From Vulcanimicrobiota bacterium (GTDB lineage: Bacteria; Vulcanimicrobiota; Vulcanimicrobiia; Vulcanimicrobiales; Vulcanimicrobiaceae), in contig CAWHWQ010000004.1 of assembly GCA_963833095.1 (NCBI GenBank), forward strand, positions 206,702 through 270,701: DNA of 64,000 nt. Direction: 5' to 3'. Positions 37,301 through 55,300 of this stretch are shown one piece after another (positions within the stretch are counted from its first letter, which is position 1; every line of letters begins with the position of its first letter). Position numbers: made by a program.

Positions 37301-40300
37301 GAGAAACTGCACGGCGTGGGTTACGCCGTCGCCGACGCGCTCGACGGTGCGCTGGCCGGCTCAACCGTCATCCGCGCCAGGTAAGAACGCCAGTTCTCAC
37401 GTGAGTATGTCAGCCAGTCTCTCCTGATCTCTTGCCATCACCACTTCCATCGCAATGCGTTCACCGACCGACACGTCGCGGCCCCAACGATAGGCGGAGT
37501 ACGGCGTGTAGCGCGTGCCCGGCGAACCCGGGATGCGCAGCGAGACGTCGTAACACACGAATTCCTTCGGCGGCCCGGCAACGATAATGCATTGCAGCGC
37601 AAACGGCCCGATGATTCCCGGCGCATTGGCTTCGCGCGCCGCGCTAACGAAACGTTCCCCCATCTCAAACGCCTGCTCGAGGGTCGATTCGGTCAAGGTC
37701 GCCGCAATGTGTCCGGCTTCTTCCAACCGCATCGGGACGTCGCGCAACGCCTCGAAGACCGCAGGCGGCACGTTACGGAAGCCTTCGAGATTGGTCTGAC
37801 GGCGCGTGTCCGTCCCCATCAATTCGAGTTCACCTAGCAGCGGCGAATAGAAGAAATTCAGATTGATCGAGGGTCCAAGAAGATACTCCTCGATGACCGA
37901 GTCGTGCAAACCCTCGGCGGTGAGCATCCCCTCGCGAATAAGCCGTTCCGCGGTCCTACGATACTCCTGCGGTGATGAGACCAGAAAAAACGCGCGCTCG
38001 AAACTGATCTTGGCGTGCGGGGCCTTCACCATCACGAGGCGATCGATCTCATTGGGCGACGCAAATTGGCGCGGATAGCGGATGCCGGCGCGCTGCATTA
38101 GCGTATATTGATTGCCCGCTTCGTTGCGCTCTTCAGCGCGCAAGAGGTACCGATTCCCGAAAAACGGGACCCGCATGCCGCGTTCGATCTGATCGTAGCT
38201 GAACTTTTGATGCAGGTAGACTTCGAACGAGCGATTGGCCACGAAGATCGCGCTACGCTCCAGCAGCGCTTGCTGCACCTTCTCGTCGAGGAGATCGGTG
38301 AACGCGTCGAGGTCGATCGTCTCGTCGACGCAGCCGCGCGCAACCGGCATCTCGCGCCGGGCAAAGTGCTCGGTGTAGGTGCGCTCGCGCCCCTTCGCTG
38401 TGATGACCAGATTGCGCAAACCCTGCGCGCGCGCTCCGTACGCCACGTCCAGCGCCGAATGGCTGCCGATCGAGCATAGCGTCAATTCAGAACGGTTGTA
38501 GGTCGCAAGCGCGGCAGAAACGTAGTCCACGTGCGCCGGGTTAATCCTCGATGACGACCTTTCCCGCCATCTGCCGCATGACGAACGTGCCATAGATGAC
38601 CACGACGACGAGCGCGACGATGACGACCGTGAGCGCGCTTGCGAGCGCAACCGGTCCGGGTGACGCGTCAAAGATCGAGATGCCCCCTTGGCGTGGCGGA
38701 AGGCTCGGCAAAAGGTACGGGTACATCGTGACCGAGGCTTGCAGCAAGAGCGACGCTAGAAACACCGATGACGCTGCAAAAGCGCGGTGCTCGCGTTTGC
38801 TCAGCGAAAGGAACAGCAACGCTACCAGCGATCCGAGGCTCAGCAGCGGAATGAAATCGATCCACGAGAGACCGATCCCGCGTTCGGACACCGTCGCCGC
38901 CGAAATCGCGAGGTAGAGCACCAGCACCACCGGCCACAGACGCGGTACCAGTCGCCGAGCGCGCTCCGTGGACGGCCCTTCCGTGCGCATAACCAAGAAC
39001 GTCGTGCCATGCAGCGCCAACGCAGCAACGGCAAAGATTCCCACCAGCAACGCGTAGGGATTGAGGAGCTCGTCGAACGTCCCCTCAAAATAGCCCTGGG
39101 GCCCCAGCGGCACGCCATGCAGCAAGTTGCCTAGCGCGACGCCAAAAAGCAAGATCAACAACGCGCTGGATGCGGCAAAGCAGAAATCCCAAAACTGATG
39201 CCAGATCTCACTTGGGATGTGCGAACGCAATTCCATCGCGATGCCGCGAAACATCAAGAGCCACAGCACGATGATCAAGGGAAGATAAAATCCCGAGAAC
39301 GACGATGCATAGGCTTTTGGAAAGAGCGCAAAGAGCGCACCTCCCGCGGCGATGAGCCACACCTCGTTTCCATTCCAGAACGGGCCGATGCTTTGCATCG
39401 AACCTTCGCGCTGACGATCGCTGCGCGCAACCAGCGGTGTGATCGTCGCAACGCCGAGATCGAACCCGTCGAGCAGAACGTAGACGGTGAGCATGAACGC
39501 AATAACGACAAATGCCGCAACGCTCATGCCGGGCCGTGACCGATCTCGCGAAGCGTCAGAAACAAGAAGAGAAAGCCTAGCAAGAAGTACATTCCGATAA
39601 AGCCGATGAGCGTGAAGATCGTTTCACCGCTGGCAACGGTCGGTGAGGCGCCGCTCGCCGTGCGCATCAACCCATAGATGATCCACGGTTGACGTCCGAC
39701 CTCGGTCGTGACCCATCCGGCTTCGTTCGCAATGTACGGAAAGGGCATCACGAGCAGCAACAGCCAGAGCAGCGGACGCGTCTCAAAGAGCTGTTTTCGC
39801 CAGAGGAACAGCGCGCAGAGTCCTGCGATGCCGGTGAAGATCGTGCCGAGCCCGACCATCACATGGTATGCGTAATAGGTCAAATCCACCGGCGGCCACA
39901 GCTCGGTCGCATACGCGCTCAAACCCTTGACGTTTGCGGTGAAATTGCCGTAGGCAAGAAAGCTCAGGAGATCGGGCACAAAGATTGGGTCGATCAAGCT
40001 GCGCGTGTGCGAATCCGGCATACCGATAATCGCCAGCGGCGCATCTTGCGTCGAGCGGAAGAGTCCTTCCATCGCGGCGAGCTTGATCGGCTGGTACTTG
40101 GTCACTTCGTCGCCGTTGCGATCGCCCGTCGGAAACACGGCAAGCACCGCAAAGACCAACGCCACGATTACGCCGATATCAACGAAACGCTGCGCCAAGA
40201 TCGTCTCGCGTTTCGAAAGCAGATAGTATGCGCCCACACCGGCAATGATGAACCCGCCGGCAACCATCGCGCCGCACAGCACGTGCGCGTATTGCCACCA

Positions 40301-52300: not shown

Positions 52301-55300
52301 TCTTCGCGGGCAGCAACAGGGTTGCGCCGGTCCCTCGACTACGCTCACTGCGTTCGCTACGCTCGGGATGACAACCGGTCCCTCGACTACGCTCACTGCG
52401 TTCGCTACGCTCGGTGATGACAACCGGTCCCTCGACTACGCTCGGGAGGACAAGGTTCATACTTCTACCTTCTTCTGCTTGGGAAACTCAGCCAACGCGT
52501 CGATGCGATCGGCCAGCGCGCGGGCGCGTTGCGGTGCGGTGCCGACGTGTTTGCCCGGATCGAGCAACCGCCGGATCTCGGCCGGGTCGAGCAGCGCCGT
52601 TAGACTGGCGTCGCCGGCGAGCGTTTGCGCGAGCGGATTATCTTGGCCGCGTGCAAGTGCGGCCCAGGCTTCCATCGCGGCTTCGCGGATTCGTTCGTGC
52701 AGCACCTGACGATCGCCGCCGGCGCGCGCCGCTTCCATCATCACCGCTTCGGTTCCGGCGAAGGGCCCGTACACGCGCAGATTGTGCGCGATCCGGCGTT
52801 CCTCGACGCGCAGGCCGTCGATCACTTTGCGCGCGAGGGTGACGATTTCGTCGGCACACAGAATCGCCTCGGGAAGAATCGTCCGCCGATTGGCGCTGTC
52901 GTCGAGGGTGCGCTCCAAATAATTTGTCGCGGCATTCTGCCATGCGACGTCGCTGTAGCTCACCAGAAGGCGCGCCAGCGAGTCAATGCGCTCGCACAGA
53001 ATGGGATTGCGCTTGAAGGGCATCGCCGAACTGCCGACTTGGGAGCGTCCGAAGGGCTCAGCGAGTTCGCCGAATTCGGGGCTACTGAGAATGCGCACGT
53101 CGGCGGCGAATTTTGAAAGCGACGCGCCGAGTCCGGCAAGTCCGCTGAGCAGCAAGTAGTCGAGTTTGCGCGGATAGGTCTGGGTGCTCACGTCGCGCGC
53201 GCGCAGACCGAACTGCTCGAGGACGTGCTCTTCGAACATCGCCGAGGTGCCCTGGTGGTCCAGCAGATGCTCGTACGACGCTGCTGTCCCGACCGCGCCG
53301 CGCAGCCCTTTGGTAGTGAGCTGGTCGAAGACGAAGCGCAGGTTGGTATCGTCGATCAAACAGTCTTGCGCGTAAACGCCGAGCCGATAGCCGAGCGTCG
53401 TCGGCTCGGCCGGCTGCAAATGGGTAAACGCCATGCAAACCAAATCGGCGTACTGTCGTATCTTCGCGGCAAAGCTCTGCAACAGGCCATGGAGATTCGC
53501 GCCCACCGCGGCCAAGCCCAAACGCAGCCGGTACGTCTCGACCGTGTCCTCGATATCCATCGAGGTCGCTCCAAGATGCAGTTTTCCACCACCGACCTTC
53601 GCCTGCGAGGCAAAGACGCGAATTTCGGCCATCAGATCGTGGTGAATCTCCCGCTCGATGGCCAGCGCCGCCTCGATGTCGACTTCGTGCGCGTGCGCGC
53701 GCAGGTCGGAGACTTCGGCGTCGGTGATCAGCCCGGCGCGCGCCTGCGCCTGCGCGAGCGCAACCCAGACCGCACGCCAAAGTTTACGGCGTTCTTCCTC
53801 GGAAAAGAGCGTGCGTAGCTCGGCGCTGCCGTATCTCCAAGAGAACGGCGAGGCGTACGTACGATAATTCATGGGACGAAGGCGCTCTTCGCCTCCGCCT
53901 AGAGCGCTGCCTCGTCGCCTTTGGTCGGAGCGTCGGGGGGCGCGGCGCGACGCGCGAAGTCTTCCAGCTCGACCGTAACGTGCTCGGGAGTTCCCGCGTC
54001 GATCGCGCGCAGTGCCGCCGCGCGGCCGGCCTCATCCACAAAGTGCCGTAGCTGCTCCTCGGTCATCCCAGCGGTCCGCGCTTCGAGGTCGTCCAGCGCT
54101 GCGGAAAGGTCGAAGCCCAGCGGTTTGCCGTCGAGCAGCGCATGCAGCGCATCACGGCGAGCCTGCGGCGTCAATTCGGTCAAATCCACGAATTCGGGGA
54201 ACCGGTTGCGCAATTCCGGGTCGATCGTGGCCGCGTCGAGCGTCTCGCCCACGATAAAGAGCGGCTCCTTGTACTGGGTCAGCCGATCGATCGTCACCGC
54301 GAGGTGCGCGATCGACCCGGGATCGCCGTACGCCGGGATCTCCACCACCACGATCGCGTGAGCGCTCGCTCGCGCCCGATCGAGCGCTTCATCGAGCGCA
54401 TCGATGTTGGCCGGAATCACCGGCAAGCCGGTCTGATCGGCCAAGCTCTTGATCGCGCTCATACGCGCGTCGGCCGACGGGCCGGCGATAAGCACCGCCC
54501 GCGGTACGGTGATGCCCTGCGACTCCATCGTCGCCACATGGGCGAACATTGCGGCCAGCATGCGCGTGCGCTTTTGCACCGGCTCGGGCAGATCGTTGTC
54601 GATTGCCTCGAGCGGAATCTGCGCCACCGCTTCGGCGTCCTCGGTGTCGATGGGAACCGTCGCGGCTCCCGCGCCGAACGTGGGCGGTACGAGATCGACC
54701 ACCGCGCCGAAGCGCGCGATGATCCCTTCGTCGAGGCCCTCGTGCGTCGCCGCGCCGGCGATCACCCACACGTCTTCTCGTCCTTCGAGCTGCTCCCACT
54801 CGCTCCAAAGTGCTTGCACGACTTCCTTGCGCATCGCTTCGTACGCGGCCGAACCCGTCGTGGTAAAGAACCGCTCCGCTTCGTCAATAAAGATGATGGA
54901 GCGCGCGCGTTTTGCGGTTGCGAAGATACGCGAAACCGTGGCTGCGCCCTGACCGACGTATCCGATCTTGATCTGCGAGAACGACAGATGCAGCAGCGTC
55001 GCGGCCGACGCGCGCGAAATCGCCTGCATGACGTCGGTCAGATCGATGCGCTCGCCGCTCTGAATGAAGAGCCCGCGCCGGATCGCCGGATCACCGAGCC
55101 GGAAAAGAACGATTTGACGGATCAACTGGTTGCGAACGGTCGCGGGCAGAGCCAGAGCTTTGACGATCGCCGCCGTGGCGTCGTATTCACGCAGCTCTTC
55201 TTCCATCCGCCGAACGCGTTCGTCGAGGTCCTTGCGCGCGCCCGAGTGTGCGACGATCTCGCGATATTCCGTGGCTTGCGTGGCGACTTGCGGCAAGTGG

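What a model noticed while it worked through the whole genome (the two positions that open the first line are those of the whole stretch)
37397..52459. Archaeal-type formate-dependent FAICAR synthetase PurP inside a bacterial purine operon
Two PurP paralogs (ATP-grasp, DUF1246+DUF1297) lie in this bacterial genome, one (g02071, 340 aa, 51% identical to Pyrococcus PurP) directly before a diverged purS-purQ-purL-purC-purB string, the other (g02064, 37% to Methanopyrus PurP) behind cydA-cydB 9 kb away; the block recurs on C5 (g02097). I read this as a phylum-wide, anciently acquired archaeal step: Vulcanimicrobiota formylate AICAR with free formate and ATP instead of, or beside, 10-formyl-THF and PurH. 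PurP has been called a signature of Archaea absent from Bacteria, so this would be the first bacterial phylum with PurP as a core purine gene.
Evidence so far: Call 47: g02071 DUF1246 9e-42, DUF1297 2e-67, best Swiss-Prot PurP of P. horikoshii 51% over 7-334 of 340, E 3e-111; g02064 37% to M. kandleri PurP, E 2e-68; the paralogs are 31% identical. relatives.tsv: PF06973 in 96% of 347 family, 81% of 453 phylum, 0.5% of 189,784 bacterial genomes, 43.5% of Archaea, the most phylum-enriched family here. Call 52: the best 120 of 6826 hits are 82-94% identical proteins of 340-433 aa; the named ones come from Vulcanimicrobiaceae, Eremiobacterota or Baltobacteraceae MAGs (one labelled Verrucomicrobiae). 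neighbours.tsv: PurP next to PurQ in 256 order genomes of 408 in all; PurP next to cytochrome bd subunit II in 97 genomes, all in this order. PurH g03140 ( [...]
(Added by a program. Inside this text positions count along the whole contig: contig position 206,702 is position 1 of the stretch shown here. "Call 12" and the like, gene names such as g00115 and contig names such as C1 are that model's own, and its searches are not shown. The text may have been shortened before it was handed on; [...] marks where a part breaks off. The agent that wrote the report below was given it as the finding of a first reader that could run no searches.)

Follow-up and report, generated by a model that had tools for sequence, protein, structure and literature searches.

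The report
Archaeal PurP gene pair in Eremiobacteria
This soil bacterium and every sampled relative in its class carry, beside the normal purH, the two-gene PurP II + PurP III pair known from archaea, here pulled apart by inserted genes; the pair's chemistry is untested and other bacteria have it too.

Summary
Two DUF1246+DUF1297 ATP-grasp genes lie on the minus strand: one (46476-47498) ends a purB-purC-purL-purQ-purS-like string, the other (37397-38530) sits 10 nt behind cydAB.

They are not lineage-specific paralogues. They are the archaeal PurP II (cluster Ib) and PurP III (cluster II) pair, by the published diagnostic residues and by trees.

In this class's other families (f2, f3) and some Baltobacteraceae the two genes are adjacent. 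In other Baltobacteraceae a secreted-protein gene, then cydAB, lie between them, and here an RND efflux unit too. The cyd linkage is therefore secondary.

The pair is class-wide (231 of 231 sampled genomes), not phylum-wide (1 of 69 in the other families). PurH accompanies it in 120 of 121 genomes.

It is not the first bacterial case. Peregrinibacteria and Gracilibacteria (CPR) carry the same adjacent pair with PurH, Bipolaricaulota/Thermotogae MAGs carry another version, and this scan already noted CPR cases.

Formate-dependent AICAR formylation is inferred only. According to Brown 2011 and Cruz 2019, the P. furiosus II and III enzymes showed no such activity, and both proteins here score under NCBIfam's equivalog cut-offs.

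I found no paper that describes bacterial PurP. I rate it a new member of a known kind, of moderate interest.

The parts
46476..47498 (-). purP type II (cluster Ib) gene, 340 aa, last gene of the purine string
   Evidence: Pfam DUF1246+DUF1297. Best PDB match is PF1517, 336 bits. Loop GAGGGKGY and Asn at M. jannaschii position 258; His27, Ser94, Ser266 and Arg314 kept. In the type II half of the trees.
37397..38530 (-). purP type III (cluster II) gene, 377 aa, GTG start 10 nt after the cydB stop
   Evidence: Pfam and start codon. Loop two residues longer and without Gly (HAKISFERAFF); His at position 258; His27, Ser94, Ser266 and Arg314 kept. In the type III half of the trees. AF2 model pLDDT 93, best fold match M. 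jannaschii PurP, TM 0.87/0.92.
47495..47887 (-). diverged PurS-like ORF (130 aa) directly upstream of purP type II
   Evidence: Only a weak Pfam PurS hit, E 0.048. No other PurS was found in the genome. The position between purQ and purP-II is conserved in f1, f2 and f3.
47884..48654 (-). purQ
   Evidence: Pfam GATase_5, 4e-38.
48651..50915 (-). small purL
   Evidence: Pfam AIRS, AIRS_C and FGAR-AT linker.
50908..52101 (-). purC fused to a diverged PurE-like domain (PAICS-like, 397 aa)
   Evidence: Pfam SAICAR_synt 3e-59 plus weak AIRC. TIGR01162 9e-6. Best PDB matches are insect and human PAICS.
52098..52460 (-). orf120, unknown, between purB and purC
   Evidence: No Pfam or NCBIfam hit.
52457..53872 (-). 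purB
   Evidence: Pfam Lyase_1 and ADSL_C.
45365..46495 (-). orf376, secreted protein of unknown family, intercalated after purP type II
   Evidence: No Pfam hit. Signal-peptide-like N-terminus. Lies between the two purP genes in 40 of 80 related loci.
40876..45423 (+). HlyD + AcrB (RND efflux) unit on the opposite strand; AcrB is split by a frameshift
   Evidence: Pfam. The frameshift lies at a T run near 43430. This insertion was seen in only 1 of 80 related loci, L307.
38541..40831 (-). cydA-cydB (cytochrome bd oxidase), intercalated before purP type III
   Evidence: Pfam 1e-141 and 6e-84. cydAB lies directly upstream of type III in 35 of 80 related loci, including 7 cut or with efflux genes, and in 9 of 29 f1 loci.

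Best explanation
The two genes are the bacterial copy of the archaeal PurP II + PurP III module (cluster Ib + cluster II of Brown 2011).

Shown:
- Each protein carries the residues that define its type.
- Each nests in its own half of the family tree. In both halves it falls in the same sub-clade of euryarchaeal, DPANN and CPR sequences.
- The pair is present in every sampled genome of the window's class.
- In the class's other families the gene order is purQ - purS-like - purP-II - purP-III.
- In Baltobacteraceae the pair is found adjacent, or separated by a secreted-protein gene, or by that gene plus cydAB. In this lineage a divergently oriented RND efflux unit lies between them as well.

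Inferred:
- One ancient transfer of the two-gene cassette from an archaeon into the ancestor of the class, followed by vertical descent.
- Function. The module acts at the AICAR-to-FAICAR step (perhaps on to IMP) of purine synthesis. It uses ATP and a one-carbon donor that is probably formate, with the type II protein as the AICAR- and ATP-binding catalytic partner and type III as an obligatory second partner (a subunit or a second step). It runs beside, not instead of, the folate-dependent PurH.
For: Type assignment:
- PurP1 has the cluster I P-loop-type GAGGGKGY and Asn258. PurP2 has the two-residue-longer, glycine-less loop and His258.
- In my 101-row set, position 258 is N in 42 of 42 type II rows and H in 42 of 42 type III rows.
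- His27, Ser266 and Arg314 are kept in all 84 typed rows. The criteria come from passages of Brown 2011.

Trees:
- The II / III split has support 100/100.
- The Eremiobacteria type II clade has support 100/100. It is sister to a Methanofastidiosum sequence (89/90) inside a 16-row clade (96/94) with Methanosarcinales, Woesearchaeota and CPR.
- The type III clade has support 100/100. It is sister (98/90) to a 13-row clade (100/96) of the same groups (the same picture with 101 rows).
- With each half rooting the other, archaeal lineages branch below the bacterial ones.

Distribution:
- PF06973 in f1 206/206, f2 3/3, f3 22/22, mostly two matches each; other families 1/69.

Adjacency:
- 4 of 4 f2/f3 genomes have II then III side by side behind the purS-like gene.
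- 76 of 101 archaeal-labelled and 64 of 77 CPR-labelled loci hold a II + III pair on one strand.
- Of 80 Baltobacteraceae-type loci: 9 direct; 12 with orf376 between; 28 with orf376 + cydAB between; 1 like the window.

Purine context:
- The pair ends the pur string here.
- A Methanosarcinales MAG has purL-purQ-purC-II-III.

Constraint:
- Both types keep many invariant polar residues across 38 and 37 sequences.

Own genome:
- No FTHFS, PurT or PurO was found in the 80.7%-complete genome.
Against: - No enzyme of type II or III has a demonstrated activity. P. furiosus PF1517 and PF0421 were reported inactive as FAICAR synthetases. I know this second-hand from Brown 2011 and Cruz 2019; the primary paper was not held.
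- Both proteins score far below NCBIfam equivalog cut-offs: 383 against 590 bits and 249 against 556 bits. NCBI names the type III proteins only 'DUF1297 domain-containing protein'.
- PurH is present in 120 of 121 class genomes and 5 of 5 CPR genomes tested. The pair is therefore not needed to complete the pathway, and its role may lie elsewhere.
- A physical II-III contact was not tested, because the complex job never ran.
- The donor lineage is not resolved.
- Holding Eremiobacteria and CPR together is rejected only weakly for type II (p-AU 0.03) and not for type III (p-AU 0.064). Both groups were named after the tree was seen.
Confidence: 0.6

Rival explanations
1. Both proteins are independent, self-sufficient formate- and ATP-dependent FAICAR synthetases like M. 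jannaschii PurP. One serves the purine operon. The other is a diverged copy recruited to the cytochrome bd operon for some other task.
For: - Both keep the formyl contacts His27 and Arg314 and the phosphate contacts Ser94 and Ser266.
- PurP2's best solved relative is the active M. jannaschii enzyme.
- cydB and PurP2 are 10 nt apart.
Against: - PurP2 has the cluster II signature, His258 and a Gly-less longer loop, not the type I signature.
- The cyd linkage is derived. The pair is adjacent in f2, f3 and part of f1, and cydAB sits between the two purP genes on the same strand in 28 of 80 loci.
- The archaeal II and III enzymes were reported inactive on their own.
Confidence: 0.12
2. A two-step module. 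Type II makes FAICAR from AICAR. Type III catalyses a different reaction, for instance the ring closure to IMP (the 'unidentified crenarchaeal IMP cyclohydrolase'). Together they duplicate both activities of PurH.
For: - Archaea with II + III often lack PurO and PurH2, and Brown 2011 raised this idea.
- The cyclohydrolase was still called unidentified in 2019.
- Type III has its own invariant residues (EER, NQ, GH, Q313, D328) that differ from those of type II.
- Earlier scan notes report CPR lineages that lost purH but kept the pair. I did not check this.
Against: - An ATP-grasp fold is not an obvious cyclohydrolase.
- Brown 2011 calls the phyletic pattern imperfect.
- Here and in 5 of 5 CPR genomes tested, PurH with its cyclohydrolase domain is present.
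Confidence: 0.15
3. The pair has a role outside de novo IMP synthesis. For example it could handle AICAR/ZMP from histidine synthesis, or act on another ribonucleotide. On this view it is kept beside PurH because the two are not redundant.
For: - It co-occurs almost perfectly with an apparently complete PurH.
- It scores below the equivalog cut-offs.
- Brown 2011 notes a Korarchaeon with a purP pair but no purine pathway.
Against: - There is tight, recurrent linkage to pur genes in bacteria and archaea.
- The AICAR-phosphate and formyl contacts are conserved.
- PF1517 binds ATP and AICAR, according to Cruz 2019.
Confidence: 0.1
4. Artefact: archaeal DNA mis-binned or mis-assembled into a bacterial MAG.
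For: - The MAG is 80.7% complete with 3.1% contamination and holds a diverged duplicate block.
- Some related records carry wrong taxon labels.
Against: - The genes lie inside a 270-kb contig between bacterial genes, with even G+C.
- The same genes occur in 231 of 231 class genomes, including single-contig assemblies.
- The gene trees follow the family structure.
Confidence: 0.01

Closest known systems
Pyrococcus furiosus PF1517 (PurP II / cluster Ib; PDB 2R84-2R87) together with PF0421 (PurP III / cluster II)
   Same: - The same two types, defined by the same residues, and co-occurring as a pair.
- PurP1 matches PF1517 at E 3e-99 over 6-333.
- Linked to pur genes.
- Function unproven.
   Different: - The host is a bacterium that also has full-length PurH.
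- The pair is split by inserted genes in this lineage.
- PF0421 itself was not available to compare. No type III structure is among the PDB hits.
Methanocaldococcus jannaschii PurP (MJ0136; PurP I / cluster Ia; PDB 2R7K-2R7N), the only PurP with shown formate- and ATP-dependent FAICAR synthetase activity
   Same: - ATP-grasp fold.
- His27, Ser94, Ser266 and Arg314 kept in both window proteins.
- PurP1 also keeps the P-loop type and Asn258.
   Different: - Type I occurs singly and with PurO. The window proteins belong to types II and III and come as a pair with PurH.
- Both are below the NCBIfam equivalog cut-offs.
PurP II + III pairs of CPR bacteria (Peregrinibacteria, Gracilibacteria and others)
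   Same: - Bacterial host and II-then-III order.
- PurH present (5 of 5 tested) and sometimes 2-3 kb upstream.
- Same broad sub-clade in both halves of the tree.
- Noted before by this scan on other genomes.
   Different: - Small-genome, probably host-dependent bacteria, against a free-living soil lineage.
- 43-51% identity to the window proteins.
- Probably a separate acquisition, on weak evidence.
- No intercalated cydAB was seen in the four CPR loci annotated.
PurH (AICAR formyltransferase / IMP cyclohydrolase)
   Same: It acts on the same pathway steps and is present in the same genomes.
   Different: It has an unrelated fold and uses 10-formyl-tetrahydrofolate rather than ATP plus a free one-carbon donor (established knowledge; passages of Brown 2011).

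Membership tests
PurP family (Pfam DUF1246 + DUF1297, ATP-grasp) | Both Pfam domains score above the gathering cut-offs over the full length | tested here: met
   PurP1 140 and 225 bits; PurP2 116 and 183 bits; cut-offs 25 and 23.8.
PurP family (Pfam DUF1246 + DUF1297, ATP-grasp) | PurP fold | tested here: met
   PurP2 model has pLDDT 93. Best match is 2r7l, TM 0.87/0.92. PurP1 was not modelled; it is 51%-level similar to 2r84 by sequence.
PurP cluster Ia/Ib (types I/II) | P-loop of consensus (K/R)GG(K/R)G | tested here: met
   PurP1 has GAGGGKGY: same length and glycines, but the first position is G, not K/R. Relatives in the class have QGGKG or HGGKG. Criterion from Brown 2011.
PurP cluster Ia/Ib (types I/II) | Asn at M. 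jannaschii position 258 (carboxamide contact) | tested here: met
   PurP1 has Asn (VVGNQP). 42 of 42 type II rows have N.
PurP cluster II (type III) | Loop two residues longer than the P-loop and lacking its glycines | tested here: met
   PurP2 has HAKISFERAFF, aligned with a two-residue insertion.
PurP cluster II (type III) | His at position 258 | tested here: met
   PurP2 has GH (EAGHIA). 42 of 42 type III rows have H.
PurP cluster II (type III) | Occurs together with exactly one cluster Ib gene in the same genome | tested here: met
   Most class genomes have two PF06973 matches. All 4 f2/f3 genomes and all 5 archaeal genomes checked hold one of each type.
Formate--phosphoribosylaminoimidazolecarboxamide ligase (EC 6.3.4.23; NCBIfam NF009778-NF009783) | Score at or above the curated equivalog cut-off | tested here: not met
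   PurP1's best is 383 bits against a cut-off of 590. PurP2's best is 249 bits against 556.
Formate--phosphoribosylaminoimidazolecarboxamide ligase (EC 6.3.4.23; NCBIfam NF009778-NF009783) | Formyl-group contacts His27 and Arg314 | tested here: met
   Both are kept in PurP1 and PurP2 and in all 84 typed rows.
Formate--phosphoribosylaminoimidazolecarboxamide ligase (EC 6.3.4.23; NCBIfam NF009778-NF009783) | ATP- and formate-dependent conversion of AICAR to FAICAR | not testable with these tools
   Needs an enzyme assay. The archaeal type II and III enzymes were reported inactive (passages).

The most novel reading that the evidence does not exclude
PurP II and PurP III are two halves of one machine: a hetero-oligomer, or a coupled two-step enzyme. 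It is active only when both are present, and it turns AICAR into FAICAR, or all the way to IMP, with ATP and formate. That would explain three things: why each P. furiosus protein was inactive alone; why the two genes travel together across archaea, CPR bacteria and Eremiobacteria; and where the 'missing' crenarchaeal IMP cyclohydrolase is. Eremiobacteria are aerobic, mesophilic and have a cultured member in the phylum, so they would be the first convenient host in which to show it.
Probability: 0.3. Interest if true: 0.75.

Novelty: new member of a known kind. Interest (0 to 1): 0.5.

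Why it matters
PurP is still described as an archaeal signature. The 2019 survey found none in 1,266 bacterial genomes. My searches found no paper that links PurP with Eremiobacterota or Patescibacteria.

A whole class of free-living soil bacteria keeps the II + III pair beside PurH in every sampled genome. This shows that the module is not a stop-gap for organisms without folate. It also shows that the two genes are selected as a unit.

The finding offers a mesophilic bacterial setting in which to settle what types II and III do. That question has been open since the P. furiosus enzymes were found inactive. It ties in with the unidentified IMP cyclohydrolase of Crenarchaeota.

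The finding is not unique among bacteria, because CPR lineages share the pair.

Tried and rejected
- **Complex prediction of PurP1 with PurP2** (alignments A5 + A6). It was never accepted, because the queue was full or the machine failed. There is no result either way.
- **One alignment of all types for a locus search.** I replaced it with three narrower alignments.
- **Protein search over 300 phylum genomes.** It failed. I replaced it with the family search and a smaller protein search.
- **Zhang 2008 and the Zhang-Morar-Ealick review.** Not held. The inactivity of PF1517 and PF0421 is therefore cited second-hand.
- **Cluster look-up for organism names.** It gave few names.
- **RNA evidence.** No RNA holder was listed.
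- **Rfam.** No family matched in the window, so no riboswitch was seen at the operon.
- **Promoter and terminator scan.** Fewer sites than in shuffles, so uninformative.
- **Contamination as an explanation.** Rejected.
- **True segmental duplication of the C4-end block.** Considered less likely than a second strain in the bin, but not excluded.
- **A named look for the pair in Vulcanimicrobium alpinum.** Not possible. It did not appear by name among the 80 loci or the 120 proteins listed.

Full report
**What is there**

All genes of interest are on the minus strand. In transcription order they are (Pfam; ORF list):
- purB (53872-52457)
- an unknown orf120
- a 397-aa purC with a C-terminal extension (52101-50908)
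- small purL (50915-48651)
- purQ (48654-47884)
- a 130-aa ORF that is at best a diverged purS (weak Pfam hit, E 0.048; no other PurS in the genome)
- a 340-aa DUF1246+DUF1297 protein, here PurP1 (47498-46476)

Next comes orf376, which overlaps the PurP1 stop and has a signal-peptide-like N-terminus. Then an HlyD-AcrB efflux unit lies on the plus strand. Then cydA, cydB and, 10 nt after the cydB stop, a GTG that opens a 377-aa DUF1246+DUF1297 protein, here PurP2 (38530-37397). The 340-aa gene closes the pur string rather than preceding it.

**Assembly caveats**

- The window is the last 64 kb of contig C4.
- Its last ~23 kb (window 38307-61703) match the start of C5 at only 85-95% nucleotide identity. 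Same-genus genomes have two PF06973 matches where this MAG has three. I read the C5 block as a second strain in the bin, not as a duplication.
- PurH on C8 is split by a frameshift in a run of seven A. Contigs of two public runs from one study carry one extra base at that run. Same-genus G136 has an intact 536-aa frame, and several other few-contig assemblies show similar splits.
- AcrB in the window is likewise split at a T run.
- Both breaks look like homopolymer errors, so I treat PurH as present and whole.

**Which PurPs are these?**

The literature divides PurP into type I (M. jannaschii, the only one with shown activity), type II, type III and a small type IV. Brown 2011 calls types I/II 'cluster Ia/Ib' and type III 'cluster II'. 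I saw passages of Brown 2011, and sections 10 and 13 plus passages of Cruz 2019.

Brown 2011 gives clear criteria:
- Cluster I has a (K/R)GG(K/R)G P-loop and Asn258.
- Cluster II has a loop two residues longer without those glycines, and His258.
- His27 and Arg314 (formyl contacts) are kept in both.

The window proteins fit these criteria:
- PurP1 has GAGGGKGY and Asn. PurP2 has HAKISFERAFF and His. Both keep His27, Ser94, Ser266 and Arg314.
- In my 101-row alignment, position 258 is N in 42 of 42 type II rows and H in 42 of 42 type III rows.
- PurP1's best solved relative is P. furiosus PF1517, type II.
- PurP2 models confidently (pLDDT 93). It superposes best on M. jannaschii PurP (TM 0.87/0.92). 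No type III structure is among the hits.

So the 'two paralogs' are the old archaeal II + III pair.

**Trees**

I gathered three kinds of sequence:
- full-length representatives from a search of 1.84 billion cluster representatives (485 hits at E <= 0.001);
- named loci from GTDB species genomes;
- both copies from five archaeal genomes and five genomes of the window's phylum, four of them from its class.

A 101-row quick tree and a 54-row careful tree agree:
- The family splits into a type III half and a type I + II half (100/100).
- The Eremiobacteria type II sequences form one clade (100/100). It is sister to a Methanofastidiosum sequence (89/90) within a clade (96/94) of Methanosarcinales, Woesearchaeota and CPR bacteria.
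- The type III sequences form one clade (100/100). It is sister (98/90) to a clade (100/96) of the same groups plus Thermococci and Thermoplasmatales.
- Inside both Eremiobacteria clades the order f3 / f2 / f1 is repeated.
- With each half rooting the other, Nitrososphaerota, Methanomethylicota, Bathyarchaeia and Micrarchaeota branch below the bacterial clades.

I infer that the two-gene cassette moved from an archaeon into the ancestor of this class and has been inherited vertically since.

Some points remain open or separate:
- Whether the CPR copies stem from the same event is unresolved. Forcing Eremiobacteria + CPR together costs 16.5 log-likelihood units for type II (p-AU 0.03) and 19.1 for type III (p-AU 0.064). 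Both groups were named after seeing the tree.
- Pairs in Bipolaricaulota- and Thermotogae-labelled MAGs group with Bathyarchaeia and have the opposite gene order. They are a separate acquisition.

**Distribution**

- In a 301-genome sample of the phylum, PF06973 is found in f1 206/206, f2 3/3 and f3 22/22. These are the families labelled same family, order and class. Most have two matches.
- It is found in 1 of 69 genomes of the other families. The exception, G082 (72% complete), has a single type II-like gene that groups elsewhere in the tree.
- 'Phylum-wide' is therefore wrong. 'Class-wide and universal' is right for the genomes searched.
- These tallies include unpublished genomes: ten, three and five.

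**The cyd linkage explained**

- In all four f2/f3 genomes examined the order is (purQ-) purS-like - II - III, with the two purP genes side by side.
- In 29 other f1 genomes, with 1.5-kb flanks, the gene in front of type III is:
  - type II directly: 2
  - type II followed by orf376: 9
  - cydAB: 9
  - unrecognised: 9
- In the 80 closest loci, with 6-kb flanks, the arrangements are:
  - II > III: 9
  - II > orf376 > III: 12
  - II > orf376 > cydA > cydB > III: 28
  - efflux(-) > cydAB > III as in the window: 1 (L307, the closest relative)
  - cyd-linked but cut by the contig end: 6
  - no type II within 5 kb or more: 12
  - too little upstream sequence: 12

All these arrangements are on one strand. 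They fit a series of insertions between the two purP genes. The cyd-linked copy is the displaced second half of the pair, not a paralogue recruited to respiration.

**Not the first bacteria**

- The nearest representative clusters of both window proteins turned out to be from Candidatus Peribacteria, Peregrinibacteria and Gracilibacteria.
- Of 77 CPR-labelled loci (de-duplicated by record title), 64 hold II then III on one strand. Of 101 archaeal-labelled loci, 76 hold a pair. These loci were picked by similarity and are not a random sample.
- Five of five CPR genomes tested also have full-length PurH. In two loci it lies 2-3 kb upstream of the pair.
- This scan had already noted such pairs in at least 19 other genomes, all CPR in the eight shown. 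I did not check those notes beyond my own CPR loci.
- The 2016 Peribacteria genome paper does not mention purP in the passages I searched.
- No paper in the held library links PurP with Patescibacteria or Eremiobacterota. The six papers since 2019 that hold both 'PurP' and 'FAICAR' do not, by title and abstract, describe bacterial PurP.
- Public annotation already names these proteins: JGI as FAICAR synthetase, NCBI only as DUF1297 protein.

**How it probably works**

Shown:
- family, type, conserved contacts, purine-operon context, universal retention as a pair, and co-existence with PurH in 120 of 121 class genomes (the miss is 72% complete).

Inferred:
- The module works at the AICAR formylation step with ATP and probably formate.

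Against a simple reading:
- PF1517 and PF0421 were reported without FAICAR synthetase activity, although PF1517 binds ATP and AICAR (second-hand).
- Both window proteins are far below NCBIfam's equivalog cut-offs.

Type III is not a decaying copy. It keeps 55 invariant positions across 37 sequences from bacteria and archaea, including its own polar motifs. Within the class it evolves somewhat faster than type II (63-67% against 71-78% identity to the window).

The strict co-occurrence and adjacency across three very different groups of organisms argue that the two proteins need each other. They may be subunits, as Cruz 2019 speculated, or successive steps, as Brown 2011 speculated.

In the 80.7%-complete genome I found no formate-THF ligase, PurT or PurO. 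A direct formate route would therefore not be redundant with a folate-loading route, but absence in an incomplete MAG is weak evidence.

I could not test binding; the complex job never ran.

**Verdict**

- It is partly wrong: phylum-wide, first in bacteria, independent paralogues, formate chemistry taken as given.
- It is a new bacterial member of a known, functionally unsolved archaeal module.

**Supplements and papers not seen**

I did not read the supplementary tables of Cruz 2019 or the additional files of Brown 2011. The primary structure paper (Zhang, White, Ealick 2008) was not held. These could bear on which conditions and mixtures were assayed.

Noticed in passing
window 50908-52101 (-): purC is fused to a diverged PurE-like domain. 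Its best solved relatives are insect and human PAICS (E 9e-62 and 6e-51, aligned into the carboxylase domain). These weak matches are the only PF00731 hits in the genome, while all 14 control genomes have a clear PurE. The full-length fusion is found in 17 of 17 sampled class genomes and, at about 40% identity, in 6 of 43 genomes of other families in the phylum. An animal-type PAICS architecture in bacteria may deserve its own look.
   Followed up: partly
L004 about 1503-1509 (G000 contig C8, purH): purH is split by a frameshift in a run of seven A. Contigs of public runs X1 and X2 have one more base there, and relatives have intact frames. This is probably a long-read homopolymer error.
   Followed up: yes
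window 43420-43450 (+): AcrB is split into two ORFs (42101-43447 and 43438-45423) at a short T run. This is probably the same kind of assembly error.
   Followed up: partly
window 38307-61703 versus G000 C5:3-24756: A block of about 23 kb is repeated at only 85-95% identity at a contig end and a contig start. C5 has an extra 1.4 kb near window 45370. This suggests two related strains in one bin.
   Followed up: partly
window 45365-46495 (-): orf376 has a signal-peptide-like start and no family hit. It is conserved at 41-62% identity and wedged between the two purP genes in many Baltobacteraceae. Its function is unknown.
   Followed up: partly
window 47495-47887 (-) and 52098-52460 (-): The presumed purS is barely recognisable (Pfam E 0.048), and no other PurS was found in the genome. 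orf120 between purB and purC has no hit at all.
   Followed up: partly
L269 (G082:C110): One genome of another class of the phylum (72% complete, 460 contigs) has a single type II-like purP. It groups with an unrelated representative (P0087), away from the class's clade. This is either an independent acquisition or contamination.
   Followed up: no
L188, L191: Nitrospirota-labelled MAG contigs carry a II + III pair nested inside the CPR clade. L188 is a 3.2-kb contig with a PemK-like gene beside the pair. Mis-binning is possible.
   Followed up: no
L308, L310, L311, L325, L329: Records labelled Acidoferrum, Verrucomicrobiia or Acidiferrales hold 81-85% identical Baltobacteraceae-type PurP2. 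Their taxon labels are probably wrong.
   Followed up: no
window 40831-40876: The cydA start (minus strand) and the HlyD start (plus strand) are only about 44 nt apart. That leaves little room for two divergent promoters, so one or both start codons may be mis-set.
   Followed up: no
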